The position numbers and the translations under genes were made by a program. The notes under the pieces were generated by a model. It saw nothing but the letters and a program-made list of their open reading frames with translations, made no database searches and was not told the DNA's origin. DNA of 64,000 nt from an uncultured Clostridia bacterium (lineage in GTDB: Bacteria > Bacillota > Clostridia > Christensenellales > UBA1242), in assembly GCA_944376845.1 (NCBI GenBank), contig CALWDZ010000003.1, positions 59,758 to 123,757 on the forward strand, in the 5' to 3' direction. This document shows positions 4,238 through 32,166 of this stretch, piece by piece; the stretch's first letter is position 1, and each line of letters opens with the position of its first letter.

Positions 4238-4545
4238 TTCATTCTGAACCTTTTTTGTCTGAGCCTTATCTTCTGCTATTCTGACATTATCTTCCGTCAT
4301 TCTGAGCGTAAGCGAAGAATCTCAACTTTACGTCACCCTGACCACTGCTCGCTTTGACGGAGAGGAAGGGTCTCTAAGAGGATGAGACTCTTCGTCAGCC
4401 GTCAGGGAAGCCACACTCAGAGTGACTAGAAAAATGTCATTCTGAACCCTTATGTCATTCTAAACAATCTTTTGTCATTCTGAGCGAAGCGAAGAATCTC
4501 AAAGATGTCTTACTTCGCTCGACATGACAAGAGAGAGTGACATAA
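4238..4545 (+). repeat. cluster of GC-rich short repeats (S modules GTCATTCTGAG..GAAGAATCTC at 4296-4323 and 4474-4500, degenerate copies, and a 95-nt L module at 4332-4426)
   Basis: Repeated GTCATTCTGA[GA]C words. The L module GTCACCCTGACC...CAGAGTGAC recurs at 30.9 and 31.6 kb. GC content is clearly above the flanks. Confidence 0.85.
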
Positions 4546-22011: not shown

Positions 22012-22905
22012 ATGTGTATAATGAAAATTATGGATAATATCAATAATAATTTTAGAAAAAAATTTAATGAAATAATAAAAAATAATAATTTTTCCGAAAT
22101 TGGCGAGCATAATTCGGTAATAAAAAGAATTAAAAATATAATTTCAAACACAAAGCCAAATAAAGAAAAATTTTTTGTTGCAGACGGAATTTGGGCGCAA
22201 AACCGTATTCTTGAAACAAATACAAATATTGATGCACTTATTATTTGTCCTGAATGTGTTTACACCAATGAAGCGGTTATGATTATTGAAAAACTGATGC
22301 AAAAAACCACAAATCGCTACATAGTTTCAAAAAAGACATATGAAAAAATTGCAGAAAGAGATAAACCAGACGGGCTTATGAGCATTGCTAAACTGCCTAT
22401 GCCTGAAATAGCAAAATTTAAACCACATAAAAAAAGTATTATTTTGGTACTAGATGGCATTGAAATACCGGGCAATATTGGCACAATGCTTCGTGCTTGT
22501 GATGGTGCTGGCGTTGAAGCGGTGTTTATATGTAATCGTCGTGCAAGACTAACACATCCAAAACTCATAAAAGGCAGTATGGGTGCAGTTCTAACTATTC
22601 CAATGTATGAATTTGAAGATGTCGCATCGTGTTACAAATTTTTAGAAGATAACAATTACACGATATTTTTGGCTGATACTCGTGCAAAAAACACTTATTT
22701 TACTCAAAAATATCCGTCTCACACTGCCTTTGTTATGGGCAATGAACGTCATGGCATATCACGTGAATGGTATACTTATCCAGTTGAAATGATTTCAATA
22801 CCAATGCTTGGGAAATGCGACTCATTAAATGTCGGAGTATCTGCCACAATACTTATATATGATGCTTCAATGAAACTTAGGTCATCGGTCATCAAAGTAA
22901 TCTAA
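22012..22905 (+). CDS. TrmH/SpoU family RNA 2'-O-methyltransferase
   Basis: LVLDGIEIPGNIGTMLRACDGAGV, FVMGNERHGIS and SLNVGVSATILIYD are SPOUT motifs 1-3. Start codon uncertain. Confidence 0.8.
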   Translation: MCIMKIMDNINNNFRKKFNEIIKNNNFSEIGEHNSVIKRIKNIISNTKPNKEKFFVADGIWAQNRILETNTNIDALIICPECVYTNEAVMIIEKLMQKTTNRYIVSKKTYEKIAERDKPDGLMSIAKLPMPEIAKFKPHKKSIILVLDGIEIPGNIGTMLRACDGAGVEAVFICNRRARLTHPKLIKGSMGAVLTIPMYEFEDVASCYKFLEDNNYTIFLADTRAKNTYFTQKYPSHTAFVMGNERHGISREWYTYPVEMISIPMLGKCDSLNVGVSATILIYDASMKLRSSVIKVI

Positions 22906-23737: not shown

Positions 23738-26700
23738 ATGAAATCTTTAAAAACTAAGATAGCCACCGTATTTAGTTTTATATGCCTAGCACTGTCAATG
23801 GCAGTGTTTGGCGTTTTTTCTGCAATCAATATACAAAATAATACCAATGGTCAACTTGGCTACATAGATAAAACTTGCTACATACAAAATTCGTCTGGAA
23901 GTAAAACATTTTACTCCACAATAGAAAAGGCTTATGCTAGTGCCACCGATGGTGACGCTATTTGTGTTTTTGAGGATATATCACTTTCAGCGGACTTTTC
24001 GGTTGAAAAAAACATATCACTTATGGCGGTTTCTTCAGATGTTACACTAAATCTTTCAGGATACAACATTGTTATTGGTAGTGGCAACACACTCACTTTG
24101 GGTGGTGGCTTAAATACATTAACACTTTCTTCAAGTTCAAATAGTACAATACAAAATGAAGGCACATTAAATGTCTATGGTGGAATTATTTCAAGTGCGG
24201 AAATTACCAATATGGGCGAATTGACATTTTTTGGCGGACAAGTAGATACCATAGCAAATACAGGACTTGTCACACTTTCGCAGTCTGCACAAATCAATAC
24301 AATACAAACAACACAACAAACCGCAGGAGAAACCGATGCGGGAATTTTTGTTTCTTCAAACTTTGTAGCAACTTCACCAATACAACTTATTATAAGTGGC
24401 GGAACACCTACACCGGGTCAACAAGTTGCATATTTTCAAGAGTTGGCAGATGCACAAAATTTTGCGGACTATTTCACCTTGACGAACTCTGGATATTTCT
24501 TGCACACTTCGGGCAATTCACTTTTAATAGGTCAATACATCACACCACCAACAGTAAGTGGACAATCTACTTTCATGTATGATGGTACTTTAAAGACATT
24601 GCGATTTAGTGGTTTAACATCATTAATGAGTGTTTCGGGCGACACACAGACTAATGCTGGAGATTACACCGCAACGGTATCACTTACCGATAAAACTAAT
24701 TATCGTTGGTCAGATACAAGAGATAGTGTTGATAAAGAATTCCGTTGGAGCATTGACCCTGCACAACTTGAATATCCAACAGTTGAACAAGATGAATTTA
24801 CATATAACACTCAATCACATTCACTTGTATTTAGTGGATTAAATAAGGATTTAATGGAGGTTAGTGGAACAACATCTGCAACAAATGTTGGAACATATGC
24901 AGCACGTGTAAGTCTTAAAGATAAGGTAAATTACACATGGGTAGATGGTGAAACTGGTGATGTAACATATCCATGGACAATAAACAAACGTCAATTAACT
25001 ATTCCAACCGCTAATCCAGCAAGTTATACATACACAGGGTCTGTTATAACTGCAACTTATACAAACCCAGATTCCGAGAATATAACACTTGGCGGGGATT
25101 TGACTGCGACAGTGGTTGGCAGTTACACCGCAACGGCGACAATAAAAGACACTGCAAACAATGAATGGACAGATGGAACAACATTAGTTAAAAATATTGA
25201 ATGGTCAATCACAAAAGCCGATCTTTTGGCACCAGATGGGCTCATATGGATACCATCTGAAGATAAATCGTCAGCAACGGCAAGATGGAATGCTGTGTCA
25301 GGTGGACAGTCATACACAGTTACAGTACTTGTCAATGGTTTACCAAGCGATCTTACAAAGACTATAAATTCAACAGAAGTTAACTTCACATCAACTGAAC
25401 TTAATGCGCTAGACAACGGCACATATACCTTCCGCGTTCAAGCAATTGGCAATTCTAACTACAACGATAGTCCTACAGCAACCTCGGGCAACTTGTATAG
25501 ACTTGTCTACATGACAAACGATGGTACAAGTACAGTCCATGCAAGACAGTACTATACACAAGGACAAAGCATATCAGCACCTAGTAAACCATCACGCACA
25601 GGCTACAACTTTATCGGTTGGGCAACTACAAACACGGCAACATCAGATAACTTGCCATCAACCGCCACAGAATCAGATACATACTATGCAGTATGGAGAG
25701 CAATTTCATATAATATATCCATTAACAACGCAAGTGGCACTGGTGGTTCTGTAGCACCTTCAACCTATACTACATCTGCAAAAGATCAGAGAATAACAAT
25801 AACAGAGCCAACACGTGTGGGCTACACATTTAACGGTTGGGCAATTAAAGTTGACGGTTCATATAGTGGAAAAGAACCAACAGTAAGCGGAACAACACTC
25901 ACAATACCAGCAAATTGCTATGGTAACATTACTCTTACTGCAACTTGGACAGCAAGACAATATAATATTACTTTAAATCAAAACAGTGGCACTGGTGGTA
26001 CTATCAATACAGCAACATATAATACCTCAACCTCAAGTCAGACAAGAACATTAACAAACCCAACAAGAGCAGGTTATGAATTTGCTGGTTGGGCAATTAA
26101 AGTTGACGGTTCATATAGTGGAAAAGAACCAACAGTAAGCGGAACAACACTCACAATACCAGCAAATTGCTATGGTAACATTACTCTTACTGCAACTTGG
26201 ACAGCAAGACAATATAATATTACTTTAAATCAAAACAGTGGTACTGGTGGTTCTATCAACACAGCAACATATAATACCTCAACCTCAAGTCAGACAAGAA
26301 CATTAACAAACCCAACAAGAGCAGGTTATAGATTTGCTGGTTGGGCAATTAAAGTTGACGGTTCATATAGTGGAGAAGCACCAACAGTAAGCGGAACAAC
26401 ACTTACAATACCAGCAAATTGCTATGGTAATATTACCCTTACTGCAAATTGGACATTGGCTATTTACACCATTACATTTGAAAGAAATAGTGGTACATGG
26501 GCAAGTGGTTACCCTGTACCAAAATCCTACAATATAAATTCAGGTGAAATCACATTACCAACAGCAGACAATATCTATCGTACAAACGATATCTTCTCAG
26601 GTTGGTATACTTCATCCACCTTCTCAGGAGATCCTGTAACAAGCATTCCAGCAGGTTCAACCGGTAACAAAACCTATTATGCACAATGGACAGAGGCTGC

Positions 26701-29053
26701 GGTATATAACACAACCCGTAACTTAGGTTATAGTGACCTTACAACTGCAATAGAAAAGGCTAATGCGGGCGAAACCTTGGATGTCTTGAGTAATTTGACA
26801 TCTACTGAAACTTATATTGTAGATAAATCTCTTACAATTCAAGCAAATACAAATGATGTTGAAGTGGAGGGCTCATTTAATGTTTCCGTAGGACATCTCA
26901 TTTTGGGTGGTGGAGCGAAAAGTTTAACCATAACAAGTTCAGTTGATGCAATAACTATTTCGGGTACCGCAAATTTAACCACTAATAATCTCATTGTAAA
27001 TGTCACTACAAAATCTTCTGCAATAGTTAGCACAACTACTGGTGAAATAAATCTAGTAGGTGGAAAGATGGATGCAGTTAATCCTTATAGTCTTTCTAAT
27101 AATGTTTATTGTATAGAAGTTTCTGCTGGCACTTTGACAATAAGTAATGTTATGATAAATTCTGATACAAAATATGTTTCTTTATACAATAGTGGAGCAG
27201 AAGTGTATATAAATGGGACACAAACCATTATATATGGGATTGACAACTCTATTGGAACAATGACTATAAATGATGGTGAAATATTCAATACTTCGTCATC
27301 CAGTAGTGCAATCGACAATTCTGGCACTTTGACTTTATACGGAGGAACTATAACTGCTGGAAAGTGGGCTGTGATTAGTGGTGGAGATGGATATGGGATC
27401 TCAAATTCGGGAACTCTAAAAATTAATGATGATGTAACAATATCAGGTGGTGATAGTGGTTTATATATTGATTCTGGCTTGACAGAAATTAGTAAGGGTT
27501 CAATCAAAGGAAATCTGTACGGAATTTATTGTATAGGTGGAGATATTAATATATCAGGAGGATCATTCATAGGTACTCAAACTGCTGGAATTTACAATGA
27601 TGGTGGAAACATAAATATTTCGGAAATGACAATGATAGTAGAAATTTCATCTGATAATTATGGAATTTTTAATAGACAAGGTACGATTGAAATCTCAGCA
27701 GGTACAGTAACTGGTGAAGTAGGAATACGAAATGCTCACGAATATAGTACCGTTTCTTATATAGTAGCTACATATGCGACATTAACTGTTTCAGGTACAG
27801 CTAATATAATAGGAACACAATATGGAATAGAAAATGAAGGGCAAGGCTCACTGTATGTAAAAGGAGGAATAATAAAAGGTTCATCCACCACCTCATCGAG
27901 AGGTATTTCTATAGATACTTATTTAGACGTTAACCAAGGCGATGTTGATACAGCTATTATAGAAATATCAGGTGGAGAGATATCAGGATATCAAGGAATT
28001 AATACTAATCATTGGTTAGATATTGATGATAGTAATGGTAAAGTGTATATATCTGGTGGAAGTGAACCTGATAATTCTACCGATAATAATATAAAGGCAG
28101 CAGGAATTTATTATTATCCGTCAGCTTATACTGCTGATAATAATATTTCTGCTGGAACTATCAATGGCTACTATGGTATTTACGTGTCTGGATCCACTAG
28201 TAATGATTCTTTCTCTTTAGTTATAAGCGGTACAGCAGAAATTGTAGGTACACAATACGGAATATATAACGAATCAAGCGGTACCGTCAATATTCGTGGT
28301 GGAACAGTTACTGCAAATGGAAATGGTGGTAGAGGAATAGAAAACTCTTCTGGTATTGTCAACATCAGTGGTGGAAAGATACAAACAACTGGTAAAGCTG
28401 CTTTCTCTATATACAATTATGATGGAACAGTTGATATATCGTCTAAAGCACAAGTCACAGCAGTATATAGAGGAATTTATAGTAGAGGTAGTTCAAGTAA
28501 TGTAACTATAAGTGGTGGGACAGTTACTGTAACTGGATCTAGTGGTAGAGGAATACATAACTCTTCTGGTAGTGTTACAATCAGTGGTGGAACGGTACGA
28601 ACAACTAGTAGTACATCTACTTACTCTATATACAATTCAAATGGAACAGTTGATATATCGTCTAAAGCACAAGTCACAGCAGCATATAGAGGAATTTATA
28701 GTACAGGTAGTTCAAGTAATGTAACTATAAGTGGTGGAACGATAAATGGTAGCACTTATTGTATCTATTTAGATTCATCAGCTACACTTAATCTTAGTGG
28801 TTCTCCTACTTTCAGTGGGAGTAGAAGAATTCACTGCAATACTACATTAAATACAAGTGTTCCACATAATGCACCTATTTATGTTTCATCTCCTTTAAGC
28901 CTTAGTTCAACTATTAGGTTATCCGCTAGCTCAAATGGATATATTGTTAGGGGGTCTATCTCTTCTTTGGATCAATATTTTAGTGCTTATTCTGGTAGTA
29001 TTAGTAGTCCAATTTATTCTATGGGAACGTATGGTCTTAGGTATAGTGCATAA
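23738..29053 (+). CDS. giant (1771 aa) cell-surface adhesin-like protein
   Basis: N-terminal anchor, then MBG-like repeats (NAGDYTATVSL..NY), an Fn3-like module and six Listeria-Bacteroides (InlB B-type) repeats (PTRTGYxFxGWA). About 750 aa of G-rich beta-helix-type repeats follow (ISGG, GIYN.GG). Confidence 0.85.
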   Translation: MKSLKTKIATVFSFICLALSMAVFGVFSAINIQNNTNGQLGYIDKTCYIQNSSGSKTFYSTIEKAYASATDGDAICVFEDISLSADFSVEKNISLMAVSSDVTLNLSGYNIVIGSGNTLTLGGGLNTLTLSSSSNSTIQNEGTLNVYGGIISSAEITNMGELTFFGGQVDTIANTGLVTLSQSAQINTIQTTQQTAGETDAGIFVSSNFVATSPIQLIISGGTPTPGQQVAYFQELADAQNFADYFTLTNSGYFLHTSGNSLLIGQYITPPTVSGQSTFMYDGTLKTLRFSGLTSLMSVSGDTQTNAGDYTATVSLTDKTNYRWSDTRDSVDKEFRWSIDPAQLEYPTVEQDEFTYNTQSHSLVFSGLNKDLMEVSGTTSATNVGTYAARVSLKDKVNYTWVDGETGDVTYPWTINKRQLTIPTANPASYTYTGSVITATYTNPDSENITLGGDLTATVVGSYTATATIKDTANNEWTDGTTLVKNIEWSITKADLLAPDGLIWIPSEDKSSATARWNAVSGGQSYTVTVLVNGLPSDLTKTINSTEVNFTSTELNALDNGTYTFRVQAIGNSNYNDSPTATSGNLYRLVYMTNDGTSTVHARQYYTQGQSISAPSKPSRTGYNFIGWATTNTATSDNLPSTATESDTYYAVWRAISYNISINNASGTGGSVAPSTYTTSAKDQRITITEPTRVGYTFNGWAIKVDGSYSGKEPTVSGTTLTIPANCYGNITLTATWTARQYNITLNQNSGTGGTINTATYNTSTSSQTRTLTNPTRAGYEFAGWAIKVDGSYSGKEPTVSGTTLTIPANCYGNITLTATWTARQYNITLNQNSGTGGSINTATYNTSTSSQTRTLTNPTRAGYRFAGWAIKVDGSYSGEAPTVSGTTLTIPANCYGNITLTANWTLAIYTITFERNSGTWASGYPVPKSYNINSGEITLPTADNIYRTNDIFSGWYTSSTFSGDPVTSIPAGSTGNKTYYAQWTEAAVYNTTRNLGYSDLTTAIEKANAGETLDVLSNLTSTETYIVDKSLTIQANTNDVEVEGSFNVSVGHLILGGGAKSLTITSSVDAITISGTANLTTNNLIVNVTTKSSAIVSTTTGEINLVGGKMDAVNPYSLSNNVYCIEVSAGTLTISNVMINSDTKYVSLYNSGAEVYINGTQTIIYGIDNSIGTMTINDGEIFNTSSSSSAIDNSGTLTLYGGTITAGKWAVISGGDGYGISNSGTLKINDDVTISGGDSGLYIDSGLTEISKGSIKGNLYGIYCIGGDINISGGSFIGTQTAGIYNDGGNINISEMTMIVEISSDNYGIFNRQGTIEISAGTVTGEVGIRNAHEYSTVSYIVATYATLTVSGTANIIGTQYGIENEGQGSLYVKGGIIKGSSTTSSRGISIDTYLDVNQGDVDTAIIEISGGEISGYQGINTNHWLDIDDSNGKVYISGGSEPDNSTDNNIKAAGIYYYPSAYTADNNISAGTINGYYGIYVSGSTSNDSFSLVISGTAEIVGTQYGIYNESSGTVNIRGGTVTANGNGGRGIENSSGIVNISGGKIQTTGKAAFSIYNYDGTVDISSKAQVTAVYRGIYSRGSSSNVTISGGTVTVTGSSGRGIHNSSGSVTISGGTVRTTSSTSTYSIYNSNGTVDISSKAQVTAAYRGIYSTGSSSNVTISGGTINGSTYCIYLDSSATLNLSGSPTFSGSRRIHCNTTLNTSVPHNAPIYVSSPLSLSSTIRLSASSNGYIVRGSISSLDQYFSAYSGSISSPIYSMGTYGLRYSA
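25835..26460 (+). repeat. 252-bp (84-codon) tandem repeat, about 2.5 copies, first two about 98 percent identical
   Basis: GGTTGGGCAATTAAAGTTGACGG recurs at 25835, 26087 and 26339. Only 5 or 6 substitutions separate copies 1 and 2. Confidence 0.9.
28405..28739 (+). repeat. 219-bp (73-codon) tandem duplication in the beta-helix region
   Basis: CTCTATATACAATT...AGTAATGTAACTATAAGTGGTGG recurs at 28405 and 28624 with few substitutions. Confidence 0.8.
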
Positions 29054-29081
29054 AAAATACTTTCTGTGGTCTCAACTACTT

Positions 29082-29126
29082 GTCATTCTGAGTCCAACTT
29101 CAACGCGTCGACCTGCGAAGAATCTC
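29082..29126 (+). repeat. S-module repeat with ACGCGTCGAC-containing insert
   Basis: GTCATTCTGAGTCCAACTTCAACGCGTCGACCTGCGAAGAATCTC is nearly identical to the copies at 30866 and 31536. Confidence 0.85.
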
Positions 29127-29159
29127 AAAAAATGCAAGGCATTTTGCCTTGCATTTTTG
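29126..29159 (+). terminator. intrinsic terminator of the adhesin gene
   Basis: ATGCAAGGC-ATTTT-GCCTTGCAT followed by T5. Confidence 0.8.
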
Positions 29160-29222
29160 TATTTTTACTTGTTAAAAGAAATATGCTATGTTATTATAAT
29201 CTTAGTTAACAAAGGAGAACTT

Positions 29223-30434
29223 ATGAATTTAAATTTCATAAATCAAATTGCTTTTTTTAAGAGAAAAACTGGCAACAAAGTGCGTAAACTAACCAGATTT
29301 AAAAACAAATCAAGTGTTGAGTATAATGCATCACTTAGTATTAAAGATATTTTGGAACCGCTTATTGAAAAAGATATGCGAGACATCAATAAGATGATTG
29401 AAACCCTTTTTCGTAAACTTATGGCAAATAGAATGGGGCTTTTTACCATTGTCAAATTTGATATGAAAAATTATTTTCCATCCATATCACTTCGCTATGC
29501 TTATGATTTTTTCATCAAAGATAAAATTAGCGAAAAATATCATCCACTTTTTGAAAATTATTGTGATAATGTTAAATACAATCTTCAAGGGCTTCCACCG
29601 TCAAGCAACTTTGCGGCAGTTATGTCAAAGGCACTAAAAGACGAACTATTTGCATTTTTTAAAGTTGATGGACTAACCGATTGCTTTTATTATGTAGATG
29701 ATTTTGTGCTATTATTCAAAAAGCGTGTAAATGAAATTTACATCAAATTTGGTATTTTGGAATGTATTAAAAATGTATTTTTTAAACGCAACAAATTACA
29801 ATATCAAAACAAAGTTAAGGCACATATTGATGACTCAAAATATACTTTTTTGGATGATACAAAACTTCCTGGCAGTTTTACATGGCTAGGTTATAAAATC
29901 GGCATTTCATATGGTTGGCAGGGCATTGGCATAACGCTAGATATGGCAGATTACAAGATGGAAATATATAGAAAAGCATTTTTTGACGCCGTTAAACAAA
30001 ATTATGCTGATGAGGAAAAGATGCGTTTGATGCTATATTCTAGCACTCGCAGTGTAGTTACAAAAATACACAAGCAGGGGAAACCAGATAAAAATGTCAG
30101 CATTTCACCATTTAAATTTTACAAAAACTTCAAAAAGTACCCAGAACTGGTAGGTGAAAACACTCGACGTTTTATGCAAGGAGTGATTGTAGATGCTTTT
30201 AGACAACAAACTATTGCCATGCCATTTTATTTAAAAGATAAAGATCCAAACAGCGGTTACAATCTATGGCATAACTTTTTTAACAGCAAAGCCATTGTAT
30301 TAAATAAAACATTTGGATGGTCTTATGAAAAACTTTATAACACCATGAAAAAATATTCCAAACTTGACATTCACTCAAAGTCATATGAACAACTTGCAAA
30401 AATGTATATAGATAATTTTGTGATAAAACTTTAA
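29223..30434 (+). CDS. stand-alone reverse transcriptase, class unassigned (retron/UG-Abi-like architecture)
   Basis: RBS AAAGGAGAA precedes the ATG at 29223. Motifs occur in order: FDMKNYFPSI, LQGLPPSSNFAAVMSKAL, CFYYVDDFVLLF (YVDD at 29691-29702), FTWLGYKI. A ~150-aa C-terminal extension has no endonuclease or maturase signature. Confidence 0.8.
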   Translation: MNLNFINQIAFFKRKTGNKVRKLTRFKNKSSVEYNASLSIKDILEPLIEKDMRDINKMIETLFRKLMANRMGLFTIVKFDMKNYFPSISLRYAYDFFIKDKISEKYHPLFENYCDNVKYNLQGLPPSSNFAAVMSKALKDELFAFFKVDGLTDCFYYVDDFVLLFKKRVNEIYIKFGILECIKNVFFKRNKLQYQNKVKAHIDDSKYTFLDDTKLPGSFTWLGYKIGISYGWQGIGITLDMADYKMEIYRKAFFDAVKQNYADEEKMRLMLYSSTRSVVTKIHKQGKPDKNVSISPFKFYKNFKKYPELVGENTRRFMQGVIVDAFRQQTIAMPFYLKDKDPNSGYNLWHNFFNSKAIVLNKTFGWSYEKLYNTMKKYSKLDIHSKSYEQLAKMYIDNFVIKL

Positions 30435-30441
30435 TATTTAT

Positions 30442-30470
30442 TTGTAAATTTTTTTAATTTGTGTTATATT
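30442..30470 (+). promoter_or_regulatory. sigma-70-type promoter TTGTAA-17 nt-TGtTATATT
   Basis: -35 at 30442-30447, extended -10 at 30462-30470, 8 nt after the RT stop codon. Confidence 0.5.
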
Positions 30471-30476
30471 ATGTTT

Positions 30477-30570
30477 AAGGTTGCGAGAGCGACTGAATTA
30501 CCCGAATTCGAAACAAGATCTCAGATGTTGTTTCATGCGGGTGGGGCTGCGGCGCCACCCCTTTTTTTTT
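30477..30570 (+). ncRNA. candidate ~95-nt small RNA (or structured RT 3' UTR) ending in a strong intrinsic terminator
   Basis: Bounded by the promoter above and by a GC-rich hairpin at 30538-30561 plus T9. Internal hairpins GAATT-ACCCG-AATTC and GAAACA..TGTTTC. No RBS for the 33-codon ORF it contains. Confidence 0.4.
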
Positions 30571-30696
30571 AAAACTAAAAAATAACTCTTGATAGTTTCG
30601 TTTACTGCCAAGCGTGTCCGCACAGTTACGTACGTTTGTACGCGCCTGCGCGGACACACTTGTCGAGCCTTACTCTCAAGGTTATTTTTTAGTTTT
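30571..30696 (+). repeat. 126-nt multi-helix element A1 (family with 52329-52454)
   Basis: 16-bp terminal stem AAAACTAAAAAATAAC/GTTATTTTTTAGTTTT, junction motif CGTTTACTG, inner stem GTGTCCGC/GCGGACAC, core hairpin CGTAC-GTTT-GTACG, junction motif GTCGAGCCT. Confidence 0.8.
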
Positions 30697-30735
30697 AAAT
30701 ATTATTTAGCCTTGTCTTTCTTCGCAAAAACGATG

Positions 30736-30781
30736 TGCGCGGACTTGTCGAGCCTTACTCTCAAGGTTATTTTTTAGTTTT
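30736..30781 (+). repeat. partial second copy (3' half) of element A1
   Basis: TGCGCGGAC-TTGTCGAGCCTTACTCTCAAGGTTATTTTTTAGTTTT duplicates 30647-30696 with a 4-nt deletion. Confidence 0.8.
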
Positions 30782-30795
30782 AAATATACTATTTA

Positions 30796-31066
30796 GTCAC
30801 CCTGACCGCTCTCAGACCACTTGTCATTCTGAGGAGCGAAGCGACGTGAGAATCTCATCATCTTGTCATTCTGAGCCCAACTTCAACGCGTCGACCTGCG
30901 AAGAATCTCTATCATATGTCACCCTGACCACTGGCCCGCTTTGATGGAGAGGAAGGGTCTCAACTATAAGAGATCCTTCGTCAGCCGTCAAGGAAGCCAC
31001 ACTCAGAGTGACTAAAAAAATTGTCATTCTGAGCCTCGACCCGCAGAGACGGAGACGAAGAATCTC
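30796..31066 (+). repeat. repeat block left of GIY-YIG (S and L modules; contains the left ~177-bp direct repeat at 30821-30997)
   Basis: Near-identical to 31491-31666. Confidence 0.9.
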
Positions 31067-31086: not shown

Positions 31087-31401
31087 ATGAATTTGTGTAA
31101 TAATCTTACTATGTATTATGTTTACATTTTATCCAATAAAAACAATACGGTTTTATACATTGGAGTTACAAATAATTTGGTAAGAAGAGTTTATGAACAT
31201 AAACAAAAATTTGTTCAAGGTTTTACAAAAACTTATAATGTAGACAAACTTGTTTATTATGAAATTTTGTATGATCCATATAATGCAATTACAAGAGAAA
31301 AACAATTGAAAGGATTGAAAAGAAAGAAAAAAGATATGCTAATAAATAATTTTAATCCGGATTGGCACGATTTATATCAAGATATTTGTAATAGCGTATG
31401 A
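31087..31401 (+). CDS. GIY-YIG nuclease family protein (small UPF0213/COG2827-type)
   Basis: YYVYILSNKNNTVLYIGVTNNLVRRVYEH...AITREKQLKGLKRKKK is the GIY-YIG core. The start may be the ATG at 31111. Confidence 0.85.
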   Translation: MNLCNNLTMYYVYILSNKNNTVLYIGVTNNLVRRVYEHKQKFVQGFTKTYNVDKLVYYEILYDPYNAITREKQLKGLKRKKKDMLINNFNPDWHDLYQDICNSV

Positions 31402-31700
31402 GATCCTTCGTCAGCCGTCAAGGAAGCAGTTCTCAGGATGACACACACAGTCTTCTGAGCATATTTTTCTGTCATTCTGAGCGTACTTTTTTGTCATTCT
31501 GAGGAGCGAAGCGACGTGAGAATCTCATCATCTAGTCATTCTGAGCCACACTCCAACGCGTCGACCTACGAAGAATCTCTATCATATGTCACCCTGACCG
31601 CTCCCCGCTTTGACGGAGAGGAAGGGTCTCAACTATAAGAGATCCTTCGTCAGCCGTCAAGGAAGCAGTTCTCAGGATGACACACACAGTCATTCTGAGT
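31399..31700 (+). repeat. repeat block right of GIY-YIG (contains the right ~177-bp direct repeat at 31491-31666 and a 60-nt segment duplicated at 31401 and 31640)
   Basis: Direct sequence comparison. The GIY-YIG stop codon is the first triplet of the block. Confidence 0.9.
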
Positions 31701-31704
31701 CAAG

Positions 31705-32166
31705 TCACACGGCATCGTCAGAAATGTGATGAGTTTTATTCTTTAAACAAAATAGAGCGTATAAAGGTACTGATTTTATGTTGTTTTCAAAACCAAAATT
31801 TTTAGATGAAACTCTAATAGAGTAGATAGGATTATATTTTTTTACAAACACACCAAGACTTTTTGCTTGGACATTGTCTACATATTTGCATTCAATTGGG
31901 ACTATACCATTCTCTAACTGAATAACAAAGTCAAGTTCAGCCTTTCCATTGGACTCCCAATAATATGGTTCAAGCCCAATTGAAATAAGTTGTTGCATAA
32001 CATAGTTTTCAGATATTGCACCTTTGGCATCGCTTGACAACATATCCATTAAAATATTTTGATAGTTTAAATTTAAACTATTTGATAGCAAGCCTACATC
32101 ACTCATATATATTTTATAACTTAATAAATCTTCATAAATTTTTAAAGGCATCAATTTAAGAAGCAT
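31705..32166 (-). pseudogene. C-terminal remnant of a DUF4143-type AAA ATPase
   Basis: Only the ~150-aa C-terminal region is present (…AELDFVIQLENGIVPIECKY…). The ~250-aa ATPase part has no room before gltX. Confidence 0.6.

What the first reader, a model, noticed from the sequence alone, without database searches (positions are those of the whole stretch)
29223..30434. Stand-alone reverse transcriptase of unassigned class in an accessory hotspot
Seen in sequence: a 404-aa ORF with its own RBS carries the RT palm motifs in canonical order. These are FDMKNYFPSI (motifs 1/2), LQGLPPSSNFAAVMSKAL (motif 4), CFYYVDDFVLLF (motif 5, catalytic YVDD at 29691-29702) and FTWLGYKI (motif 7). About 150 aa of helix-rich C-terminus follow. 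There is no maturase X or HNH domain, no group II intron RNA around it, no integrase, and no template/variable repeat pair. Established knowledge: compact bacterial RTs that come only with a neighbouring non-coding RNA are the architecture of retrons and of several UG/Abi (DRT) anti-phage RTs. Inference: this is a candidate defence or retroelement RT. Unusually, its structured non-coding partners lie downstream rather than upstream.
Basis: partly seen in the sequence, partly recalled or inferred. Interest (0 to 1): 0.8.

Follow-up and report, generated by a model that had tools for sequence, protein, structure and literature searches.

The report
Solo Drt3a-like reverse transcriptase with own ncRNA
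This is a real reverse transcriptase gene, a distant relative of the Drt3a enzyme of the two-enzyme DRT3 anti-phage system, but here it lacks the second enzyme, always travels with its own roughly 93-base structured RNA, and is inherited like a core gene in a small group of uncultured gut Clostridia.

Summary
Window 29223-30434(+) encodes a 403-aa protein with RT motifs in order (YVDD at 29691-29702), its own promoter and RBS.

It is not class-less. Only 9 close homologues exist in 5.8 billion proteins, but a profile search links it over its full length to Drt3a (UG3, class 2 UG/Abi RT). Evidence: hhalign probability 100, E 4e-43; best solved structure is 9z6y Drt3a.

Every distant relative examined has Drt3b (UG8) directly downstream. 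The window RT belongs to a separate clade in which no examined locus has Drt3b.

A roughly 93-nt RNA gene follows the RT at 30478-30570. It has its own extended -10 promoter and terminator, and 16 of 25 base pairs show compensatory changes. It accompanies the RT in every genomic context and matches no Rfam family.

Its only long single-stranded stretch follows a GNRA hairpin and reads AAUU-ACCCG-AAUU. This is the A-B-A' pattern that programmes tandem-repeat cDNA synthesis in DRT10.

The other "structured" DNA downstream is lineage-specific repeats.

The module is inherited vertically (dN/dS 0.04-0.15). Two lineages have lost catalytic aspartates yet keep both protein and RNA.

Verdict: a new variant of a known kind. 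The mechanism is inferred, not shown.

The parts
29169..29197 (+). Promoter-like site of the RT gene (TTGTTA, 17 nt, TATTAT, with TG before the -10)
   Evidence: Consensus scan. It lies just after the terminator of the upstream surface-protein gene (29128-29158). Function is inferred.
29211..29217 (+). Ribosome-binding site AAAGGAG, 5 nt before the ATG
   Evidence: Read from the sequence.
29223..30434 (+). Reverse transcriptase gene (403 aa): a Drt3a/UG3-like class 2 UG RT of a clade that lacks Drt3b. YVDD at 29691-29702, motif A Asp at aa 80.
   Evidence: motifs; full-length homology to Drt3a; no Drt3b, separate clade; dN/dS 0.04-0.15.
30442..30470 (+). Promoter of the ncRNA (TTGTAA, 17 nt, TATATT, extended -10 TGnTA conserved in all 7 distinct homologous loci)
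   Evidence: scan; T28, G29, T31 and A32 invariant in alignment A3.
30478..30570 (+). Conserved structured ncRNA (roughly 93 nt) that accompanies the RT in every context
   Evidence: Covariance-model hits of 96-108 bits in all window-clade loci and 46 bits in L022. 97.2% of cells paired, 16 of 25 pairs with compensatory change, 0 of 500 shuffles as good. Fold z-score -3.7. No Rfam match.
30479..30494 (+). P1: 6-bp hairpin with GAGA tetraloop; proposed 5' template boundary
   Evidence: 3 of 6 pairs with change on both sides, 100% paired. The boundary role is inferred by analogy with DRT10 SL5 and DRT3 SL4.
30495..30509 (+). Single-stranded linker G-AAUU-ACCCG-AAUU-C: proposed A-B-A' template (A 30496-30499, B 30500-30504, A' 30505-30508). 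Predicted cDNA unit is CGGGTAATT.
   Evidence: A direct repeat of at least 4 nt occurs in 5 of 9 distinct linkers, reached in 5 of 5000 shuffles. The two copies change together in L008 (AAUC/AAUC) and L005 (AUUU/AUUU). The hairpin alternative has no compensatory change and 4 of 5 pairs only break. The template role is inferred.
30510..30534 (+). P3: long hairpin GAAACAAGAUC-UCA-GAUGUUGUUUC
   Evidence: 10 pairs, 5 with change on both sides, 98% paired.
30539..30570 (+). P4 hairpin (30539-30560) plus U-run (30562-30570): intrinsic terminator of the ncRNA
   Evidence: 8 of 9 pairs with change on both sides.

Best explanation
The locus is a two-part module: a reverse transcriptase and a small RNA gene immediately after it.

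**The RT.** It is a divergent member of the lineage that contains Drt3a (UG3), a class 2 UG/Abi enzyme. It belongs to a sister clade that works without the second enzyme of DRT3, Drt3b/UG8.

**Proposed mechanism.** By analogy with the studied class 2 enzymes (DRT3a, DRT9, DRT10), the RT binds the roughly 93-nt RNA through hairpins P1 and P3. It then repeatedly copies the short single-stranded linker between them. P1 stops the enzyme at the 5' end of the template. The nascent DNA end (complement of AAUU) re-anneals on the second AAUU, and another unit is added. The product would be single-stranded tandem repeats, predicted (CGGGTAATT)n in this organism.

**Proposed role.** The product or the RNP most likely serves an anti-phage, abortive-infection type role, as in the RT + ncRNA systems DRT2 and DRT9.

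**Shown versus inferred.**
- Shown: the RT motifs, homology to Drt3a, absence of Drt3b, the conserved RNA with its structure, promoter and terminator, linkage of RT and RNA, vertical inheritance and purifying selection.
- Inferred: RNA binding, which stretch is the template, the repeat product, the priming mode and the biological role.
For: **Family.**
- An exhaustive profile search finds 152 representatives, matched over nearly the full length.
- 66 of 72 members hit the PADLOC Drt3a model, best E 2.5e-41 for that model.
- The best solved structure by sequence is 9z6y Drt3a, E 6e-28.
- hhalign of the window clade against 22 Drt3b-linked Drt3a proteins gives probability 100, E 4.3e-43, 392 columns.
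- The best structural matches of the model are DRT9 RTs.

**Solo status.**
- My Drt3b HMM finds a partner next to nearly every distant relative with enough flank, and none in the window (64 kb) or any solo-clade locus.
- The partner family was verified as Drt3b, E 8.8e-120.
- Solo sequences form one clade.

**RNA.**
- It follows the RT in the gltX context in both orientations and in the SpoU context.
- It lies upstream of the RT in L022.
- A candidate with a perfect promoter lies on the opposite strand in L033.

**Template idea.**
- DRT10 needs an A-B-A' repeat placed after a stable stem-loop (PMC12632851).
- The DRT3a template ACACAC sits next to stem-loop 4 (PMC13174585).
- The gut-Firmicutes DRT3 RNA shows the same order: GNRA hairpin, template, long hairpin.
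Against: - No experiment exists. The product, priming mode and phenotype are unknown.
- The A-B-A' evidence rests on few, related sequences. Only two lineages discriminate it from a hairpin, and 3-nt repeats in an AU-rich linker are expected by chance.
- Two lineages (P0002: motif A D to S and YIND; P0003: HLNE) lack catalytic aspartates yet keep the protein and RNA under purifying selection. This argues that polymerisation is not the only selected activity.
- The genomic setting is not defence-like. It is single-copy, syntenic among housekeeping genes and vertically inherited, with no homologue in phage records.
- The RT itself scores below every PADLOC DRT model.
- A Drt3b gene elsewhere in the genome cannot be excluded.
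Confidence: 0.5

Rival explanations
1. **Domesticated, non-defence RNP.** The RT and RNA act as a housekeeping or regulatory ribonucleoprotein whose selected function is RNA binding rather than DNA synthesis. Polymerase activity would be dispensable, or lost, in some species.
For: - Vertical inheritance at core-gene pace: RT 67-74% identity against yqfD 65-74% and era 75-80%.
- Conserved synteny next to SpoU methylase, gltX and rpoB.
- dN/dS 0.04-0.15, including between the two lineages that lost catalytic Asp residues.
- The RNA helices are still maintained by compensatory changes in those lineages.
- No copies in phage records, and the single plasmid-record hit is a canonical two-RT DRT3 rather than this solo module.
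Against: - The window copy and most of the wider clade keep an intact Y[VI]DD and motif A Asp.
- All studied relatives are DNA-synthesising defence enzymes (PMC13174585, PMC12632851).
- dS is saturated for the key comparison between the two inactive lineages.
- No candidate cellular target is known.
Confidence: 0.22
2. **Split DRT3.** The RT still works with a Drt3b/UG8-type partner, or another effector, encoded elsewhere in the genome.
For: - In E. coli DRT3, defence needs both enzymes, and Drt3a alone works poorly with all four dNTPs.
- Only 64 kb of this genome, and MAG fragments of the others, could be inspected.
Against: - Drt3b is adjacent in nearly every canonical locus with enough flank, while none of about 10 independent solo-clade contexts has it.
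- The solo clade has a different RNA without ACACAC.
- No gene other than the RNA stays with the RT across contexts.
Confidence: 0.08
3. **Decaying remnant.** This is what is left of a DRT3 system after loss of Drt3b, with no current function.
For: - Catalytic residues are lost in two lineages.
- P0010 has a deletion of the palm motif.
- P0009 is a chimera.
Against: - Intact ORFs in at least six species-level lineages, with dN/dS 0.04-0.15.
- The RNA, its promoter and terminator are conserved, with 16 compensated pairs.
Confidence: 0.05
4. **Retron.** The RT makes msDNA from an msr-msd RNA.
For: The window protein's only PADLOC and NCBIfam hits are retron RT models: RT_III-A at 1.6e-6 and retron_St85 at 17.9 bits.
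Against: - Those hits cover only the palm (aa 71-200), and the retron_St85 hit is far below its cut-off of 235 bits.
- Full-length homology is to Drt3a.
- The RNA is short, ends in a terminator, and has no a1/a2 terminal inverted repeat.
- No effector gene is conserved next to it.
- The retron NAxxH and VTG motifs are absent from the sequence (read; the motif definitions come from my own knowledge).
Confidence: 0.03

Closest known systems
DRT3 (Drt3a/UG3 + Drt3b/UG8 + ncRNA; Gao 2020; Mestre 2022, PMC9226505; Wang et al. 2026, PMC13174585)
   Same: - The RT is homologous to Drt3a over its whole length, including the C-terminal region.
- A cis-encoded structured RNA accompanies it.
- In gut-Firmicutes DRT3 loci the RNA also lies directly after Drt3a and has the order GNRA hairpin, template, long hairpin.
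   Different: - No Drt3b.
- About 25% identity, and about 40 residues shorter at the N-terminus.
- Its own clade.
- The RNA is about 93 nt rather than about 150 nt, has no ACACAC motif and is not detected reciprocally.
- Chromosomal, syntenic and vertically inherited.
- Some members are catalytically dead.
DRT10 (UG17 RT + ncRNA + SLATT; PMC12632851)
   Same: - A class 2 UG RT with a small ncRNA.
- The template loop is poorly conserved in sequence but has an A-B-A' repeat placed just 3' of a stable stem-loop. This is exactly the layout of the window RNA linker.
   Different: - No SLATT effector.
- The RT is closer to Drt3a than to UG17.
- Template use here is only predicted.
DRT9 (UG28) and DRT2 (UG2): two-component RT + ncRNA defence systems
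   Same: - Only an RT and an ncRNA, with no separate effector gene.
- DRT9 structures are the best structural matches of the model.
   Different: - The DRT2 ncRNA lies upstream of its RT (PMC9226505); the position of the DRT9 ncRNA was not checked here.
- Templates differ: a poly-U tract in DRT9 and a rolling-circle loop in DRT2.
- Sequence similarity is weak.
- UG2 is often on mobile elements, and UG28 scored high for defence-island association and was shown to defend (Mestre 2022).
Retron RTs (types III-A, VI, VII)
   Same: A compact RT with a linked ncRNA. These are the only models the window protein itself touches in PADLOC and NCBIfam.
   Different: The match is to the palm only, and the NCBIfam hit is far below its cut-off. 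There is no msr-msd architecture and no effector.

Membership tests
DRT3 defence system | Drt3a (UG3)-type reverse transcriptase | tested here: met
   Homologous but divergent. hhalign gives probability 100, E 4.3e-43, 392 columns. A family profile hits 9z6y Drt3a at 6e-28. The window protein alone does not reach any PADLOC Drt3a model.
DRT3 defence system | Drt3b (UG8) reverse transcriptase encoded next to Drt3a | tested here: not met
   A Drt3b HMM finds no hit among window ORFs of at least 100 aa (64 kb) or in any solo-clade locus. It finds a partner beside nearly every distant relative with enough flank. The HMM seeds were verified as Drt3b, E 8.8e-120.
DRT3 defence system | ncRNA with the conserved ACACAC template motif | tested here: not met
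   The window RNA has no ACACAC. Model R1 finds nothing in the Drt3a-Drt3b intergenic RNAs of canonical loci, which do carry an invariant ACACACAUCAUCGG.
DRT3 defence system | Anti-phage activity dependent on both RT active sites | not testable with these tools
   Requires phage challenge.
Class 2 UG/Abi RTs (ncRNA-templated) | RT without any additional known domain, phylogenetically with UG2, UG3, UG17 and UG28 | tested here: met
   No Pfam domain. The nearest families are Drt3a, then UG17, Drt9 and UG4, among relatives. Top structural hits are DRT9.
Class 2 UG/Abi RTs (ncRNA-templated) | Conserved structured ncRNA encoded in cis | tested here: met
   Window 30478-30570, with covariation. It is linked to the RT in four or more different genomic contexts.
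Class 2 UG/Abi RTs (ncRNA-templated) | Short template with terminal repeat (A-B-A') just 3' of a stable stem-loop | tested here: inconclusive
   The pattern is present in the window (AAUU-ACCCG-AAUU after P1) and is at least 4 nt in 5 of 9 linkers. Co-variation is seen in L008 and L005, and the hairpin alternative is unsupported. However, there are few independent sequences.
Class 2 UG/Abi RTs (ncRNA-templated) | Synthesis of repetitive cDNA | not testable with these tools
   Needs cDNA sequencing or biochemistry.
Retron | Retron-type RT reaching family thresholds | tested here: not met
   NCBIfam retron_St85 scores 17.9 bits against a cut-off of 235. PADLOC retron models give E 1e-6 to 1e-2, over the palm only.
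Retron | msr-msd RNA with terminal a1/a2 inverted repeats, and an adjacent effector | tested here: not met
   The RNA is three independent hairpins ending in a terminator. No gene other than the RNA is conserved next to the RT.
Group II intron RT | Intron RNA domains around the ORF, with maturase/En domains | tested here: not met
   No Rfam intron hit at gathering or E-value thresholds. No Pfam domains.
Diversity-generating retroelement | Template/variable repeat pair near the RT | tested here: not met
   The repeats found are dispersed intergenic repeats, not a TR/VR pair.

The most novel reading that the evidence does not exclude
The RT and its RNA form a domesticated, vertically inherited ribonucleoprotein of gut Clostridia whose main selected function does not need DNA synthesis. 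Lineages with a destroyed active site keep both parts under strong purifying selection. That would make it a bacterial example of a defence-type, telomerase-related RT converted to a cellular, non-polymerase role.
Probability: 0.2. Interest if true: 0.85.

Novelty: new variant of a known kind. Interest (0 to 1): 0.62.

Why it matters
**What it adds.** DRT3 is understood as an obligate pair: Drt3a makes poly(TG) from an RNA template and Drt3b makes the complementary strand. A sister clade that keeps a Drt3a-type enzyme, replaces the RNA with a compact roughly 93-nt one and has no Drt3b shows that this enzyme lineage can work, or be kept, on its own.

**What it offers experimentally.** At about 1.4 kb the system is very small and could be used to test the A-B-A' rule of telomerase-like repeat synthesis outside DRT10. 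The predicted template differs between species, with units of 7-10 nt.

**The open question it raises.** Vertical inheritance among housekeeping genes, together with natural active-site-dead variants under purifying selection, raises the testable question of whether some UG reverse transcriptases have non-defence or non-catalytic roles.

Tried and rejected
- **Direct classification of the window protein.** Pfam gave nothing. NCBIfam and PADLOC gave only weak retron palm hits. PDB by sequence gave nothing meaningful. These misled towards 'retron-like' until the family profile was built.
- **Rfam.** Nothing at gathering or E-value thresholds.
- **Structure prediction.** The AF2 model from 9 sequences gave a confident RT core only (pLDDT 57, C-terminal half poor). 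The C-terminal domain fold could not be assessed. Deeper alignments could not be submitted under the tool's restrictions.
- **The search for related loci with the 72-member alignment.** It failed because no stretch was conserved enough.
- **The 132-nt hairpin (30568-30699) as RT partner or retron-like a1/a2 structure.** Rejected: it occurs only in the window and L001.
- **GTCATTCTGAG repeats as partners.** Rejected: they are dispersed across the window.
- **P2 hairpin in the RNA linker.** Not supported by covariation.
- **RNA model R1 on other loci.** It did not find convincing RNAs next to L023, L081, L082 or L083. Those contigs are short.
- **Phage and viral searches.** The RT is absent from phage records and the RNA is absent from viral contigs.
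- **Basal clade members.** Their contexts were limited to contigs of at most 2 kb.
Full report
**1. The observation**

Window 29223-30434(+) is a 403-codon gene. Its ATG is preceded by AAAGGAG (29211-29217) and by a promoter-like site at 29169-29197. That site lies just after the terminator of the upstream 1771-aa surface-protein gene (29128-29158). No Pfam domain is detected. Across the whole window only three tRNAs reach Rfam gathering scores. No template/variable repeat pair is present.

**2. What kind of RT it is**

The protein on its own is almost unclassifiable:
- Pfam gives nothing.
- NCBIfam retron_St85 scores 17.9 bits against a cut-off of 235.
- PADLOC gives only palm-region hits to retron RT models at E 1e-6 to 1e-2.
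- Just nine homologues (66-96% identity) exist among 5.8 billion proteins.

A profile of these sequences, searched exhaustively against 1.84 billion representatives, found 152 proteins. Most are 430-470 aa and are matched over nearly the whole length. Of 72 full-length members:
- 66 hit the PADLOC Drt3a model, best E 2.5e-41 for that model.
- 49 hit Pfam RVT_1.
- Nearly all carry Y[VI]DD.

The best solved structure for the family profile is 9z6y, 'Drt3a reverse transcriptase protein' (E 6e-28), followed by DRT9. A profile-profile comparison of the window clade with 22 Drt3a proteins taken from loci that also encode Drt3b gives probability 100, E 4.3e-43, over 392 aligned columns reaching the C-terminus. 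The AlphaFold model is confident only for the RT core (pLDDT 57 overall). Its best PDB matches are DRT9 RTs. The RT therefore belongs to the Drt3a/UG3 lineage of class 2 UG/Abi RTs, not to retrons.

**3. It is a solo enzyme**

DRT3 is defined by two RTs, Drt3a (UG3) and Drt3b (UG8), plus an ncRNA (PMC9226505; PMC13174585).

I fetched 16 loci from species-representative genomes and 46 from metagenomes. I then scanned all their ORFs with a Drt3b HMM built from six neighbours. Its seed type was verified as Drt3b, E 8.8e-120.
- Nearly every relative at 30% identity or less with enough downstream sequence has Drt3b immediately after Drt3a. L064 was the one locus with about 1.1 kb of downstream sequence and no hit. 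A Bacillus plasmid hit also has it.
- None of the following has it: the window (64 kb), the window clade in any context, L022/L035 (39% identity, followed by leuS), or L033/P0014 (30%, beside rpoBC on a contig of at least 125 kb). L023 (37%, only about 530 nt downstream, occupied by tRNA genes) shows none either, but its flank is too short to judge.

In a neighbour-joining tree the solo sequences form one clade, separate from all Drt3b-linked sequences. The tree is midpoint-rooted, so the direction of change (loss of Drt3b versus an ancestral solo state) is not settled.

**4. The RNA partner**

Downstream regions of seven distinct homologous loci share a block that starts about 45 nt after the stop codon.

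- *Promoter.* It has a conserved extended -10 promoter. In the window this is TTGTAA, 17 nt, TATATT at 30442-30470, with TGnTA invariant.
- *Transcript.* The roughly 93-nt transcript spans 30478-30570:
  - P1 (30479-30494): 6 bp with a GAGA loop.
  - A 13-16-nt linker (30495-30509).
  - P3 (30510-30534).
  - A terminator hairpin P4 (30539-30560) with nine U.
- *Structural support.* RNAalifold predicts 25 pairs. On 10 distinct sequences, 97.2% of cells pair (shuffles average 81%, slid controls 37-55%). 16 pairs show changes on both sides, and 0 of 500 shuffles do as well.
- *Strand.* G-U pairs and the U-run fix the strand as +.
- *Known families.* It matches no Rfam family.
- *Linkage to the RT.* A covariance model finds it once per locus:
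  - After the RT in the giant-protein/gltX context, in both orientations of the RT relative to those flanks.
  - After the RT in the SpoU context.
  - Before the RT in L022.
  - As a shortened candidate with a perfect TTGACT, 17 nt, TATAAT promoter on the opposite strand, 480 nt from the RT in L033.

No protein gene shows such linkage. The RNA is therefore the RT's partner.

**5. What the other downstream 'structures' are**

- 30568-30699 is a 132-nt near-perfect hairpin (z -10.6) with a partial duplicate at 30743-30787. It occurs only in the window and its 96% relative L001.
- The GTCATTCTGAG-type repeats occur 15 times across the window and surround a GIY-YIG gene at 31087-31401.

Neither is conserved with the RT.

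**6. Proposed mechanism (inferred)**

The studied class 2 enzymes copy a short segment of their ncRNA repeatedly.
- For DRT10 the two fixed requirements are an A-B-A' repeat, so that the nascent DNA can re-anneal, and a stable stem-loop immediately 5' of the template (PMC12632851).
- For DRT3a the template ACACAC lies next to stem-loop 4.

The window RNA has one sizeable single-stranded stretch. It begins one base after P1 and reads G-AAUU-ACCCG-AAUU-C.

Across species B varies in sequence and length, giving units of 7-10 nt, while the flanking repeat is kept:

| Locus | Linker repeat pattern |
|---|---|
| L019 | GAAUU-AA-GAAUU |
| L011 | AAUU-ACCGUC-AAUU |
| L008 | AAUC-UCAA-AAUC |
| L005 | AUUU-AACC-AUUU |

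Others keep AAU or AUU.

- A direct repeat of at least 4 nt occurs in 5 of 9 distinct linkers. Only 5 of 5000 shuffles reach this.
- Because GAAUUC is palindromic, a hairpin is an alternative. As a helix, however, it has no compensatory change, and four of its five pairs vary only by breaking. The direct-repeat identity is retained in exactly the two sequences where the hairpin fails.
- The conserved RNA of gut-Firmicutes DRT3 loci, read on the strand that gives G-U pairs and GAAA loops, has the same order of parts: a 5-bp GNRA hairpin, ACACACAUCAUC, then a long hairpin.

I therefore propose that P1 is the template boundary and that the product is (CGGGTAATT)n in this organism. The sample is small and the sequences are related, so this remains a hypothesis. 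The priming mode is unknown.

**7. Evolutionary behaviour**

The module is single-copy in each of five species-representative MAGs, all titled 'uncultured Clostridia bacterium'.

- *Synteny.* In the window the order is SpoU-type methylase (22012-22905), a 198-aa ORF, the giant surface protein, RT, RNA, then gltX (convergent).
  - In L002 and L005 the RT follows the same SpoU gene directly.
  - In L012-L015 and L019 the RT-RNA unit is inverted between gltX and the giant gene.
- *Divergence.* RT identity to the window (67-74%) tracks core neighbours: yqfD 65-74%, era 75-80%, recO 83-86%, gltX 83-90%.
- *Selection.* dN/dS is 0.04-0.15 for all pairs with a usable dS (dS could not be estimated for the window-L008 pair).
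- *Mobile elements.* There are no matches in phage records or viral contigs.

This pattern is unusual for a defence gene.

**8. Natural active-site losses**

- P0002 (three independent assemblies, plus L017) has motif A D to S and YVDD to YIND (YHIND in L017).
- P0003 (three assemblies) has HLNE.
- P0005 has YYDD(A/T), which may still work.

The two clearly inactive lineages share the Asp-to-Asn change, so it is probably ancestral to them. Both lineages keep full-length proteins at 78% identity to the window. Both also keep RNAs whose helices are maintained by compensatory changes. dN/dS between them is 0.06, although dS is saturated. That the first Asp of YxDD and the motif A Asp are essential for RT catalysis is established knowledge from HIV-1 RT. 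This is the main evidence that something other than DNA synthesis, most simply RNP formation, is under selection. It is also the main argument against a purely polymerase-based model.

**9. Verdict**

The finding is real. The class is resolved as a Drt3a-like class 2 UG RT. The architecture is new: no Drt3b, its own compact RNA, and a chromosomal, vertically inherited setting with catalytically dead sisters. It fails two defining features of DRT3, so it should not be filed as DRT3. It most likely works like a class 2 RT-ncRNA system. The Mestre 2022 classification describes UG3 only together with UG8. A text search of the 2026 DRT3 study for 'solo', 'orphan' and 'standalone' found nothing. The mechanism and the role remain inferred.

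Noticed in passing
window 30568-30699 (partial duplicate of the right arm at 30743-30787): A 132-nt near-perfect hairpin element (19-nt perfect terminal inverted repeat, inner GC-rich stem; -59 kcal/mol, z -10.6) lies right after the ncRNA terminator. It is found only here and in L001 among 83 loci. It looks like a lineage-specific palindromic or MITE-like insertion.
   Followed up: partly
window 29071-29092, 30812-31036, 31432-31702, also 4295-4484, 21925 and 52926: Dispersed intergenic repeats with the core TGTCATTCTGAG (15 copies against 0.4 expected). They form composite units of about 110 nt and flank a 104-aa GIY-YIG gene (31087-31401). Related GTCATTCCGAG/GTCATTTCGAG repeats flank the RT in L008 and L009.
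   Followed up: partly
window 31705-32166 (-): A 153-aa ORF that matches only the C-terminal half of DUF4143 (profile positions 73-159). It looks like a truncated ATPase-associated gene fragment. This stretch is absent from the close relative L001.
   Followed up: no
window 22012-22905 (+); L002 9136-10011; L005 9114-9986: The SpoU/TrmH-type methylase gene lies 6.3 kb upstream of the RT in the window. In the two lineages whose RT has lost catalytic residues it directly abuts or overlaps the RT gene. Whether this is more than synteny is unknown.
   Followed up: partly
L012-L015 and L019 versus window, L001, L008 and L011: The RT + ncRNA unit sits between gltX and the giant surface-protein gene in both orientations in different species, so the unit has been inverted in place at least once.
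   Followed up: partly
L024-L031, L036-L067: intergenic region between Drt3a and Drt3b (e.g. L029 2946-3080): Canonical gut-Firmicutes DRT3 loci carry a conserved RNA-like element of about 150 nt between the two RT genes. Its G-U pairs (for example 17 of 17 at two positions), GAAA tetraloops and invariant ACACACAUCAUCGG all appear on the strand opposite to the RT genes. This suggests an antisense-encoded ncRNA. Mestre 2022 mentions an 'ncRNA upstream of UG8' architecture in Terrabacteria.
   Followed up: partly
L081 1428-1560 and L082 1500-1600: Two basal solo-clade RTs with a YGDD motif (P0019, P0017) share a different conserved non-coding block downstream (CAACTTGACAAARTGTTG ... AAACAAATTGCCGAACA ... 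AATTCCCTCGATTAA). It may be their own ncRNA. Only two sequences on short contigs are available.
   Followed up: no
L016 3732-5183 (P0009): A 483-aa ORF joins an unrelated N-terminal stretch to the C-terminal 264 residues of the RT, starting just before YVDD. The neighbouring upstream gene, not the ORF itself, has a weak phage-tail-fibre Pfam hit. The ncRNA is still downstream. It may be an assembly chimera or a real rearrangement.
   Followed up: no
window 23738-29053 (+): A 1771-aa secreted protein with five Listeria-Bacteroides repeat domains and near-identical internal repeats. Its counterparts in related species differ greatly in length (about 1540 to at least 2307 aa), so this neighbour, not the RT, is the fast-changing gene of the region.
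   Followed up: no
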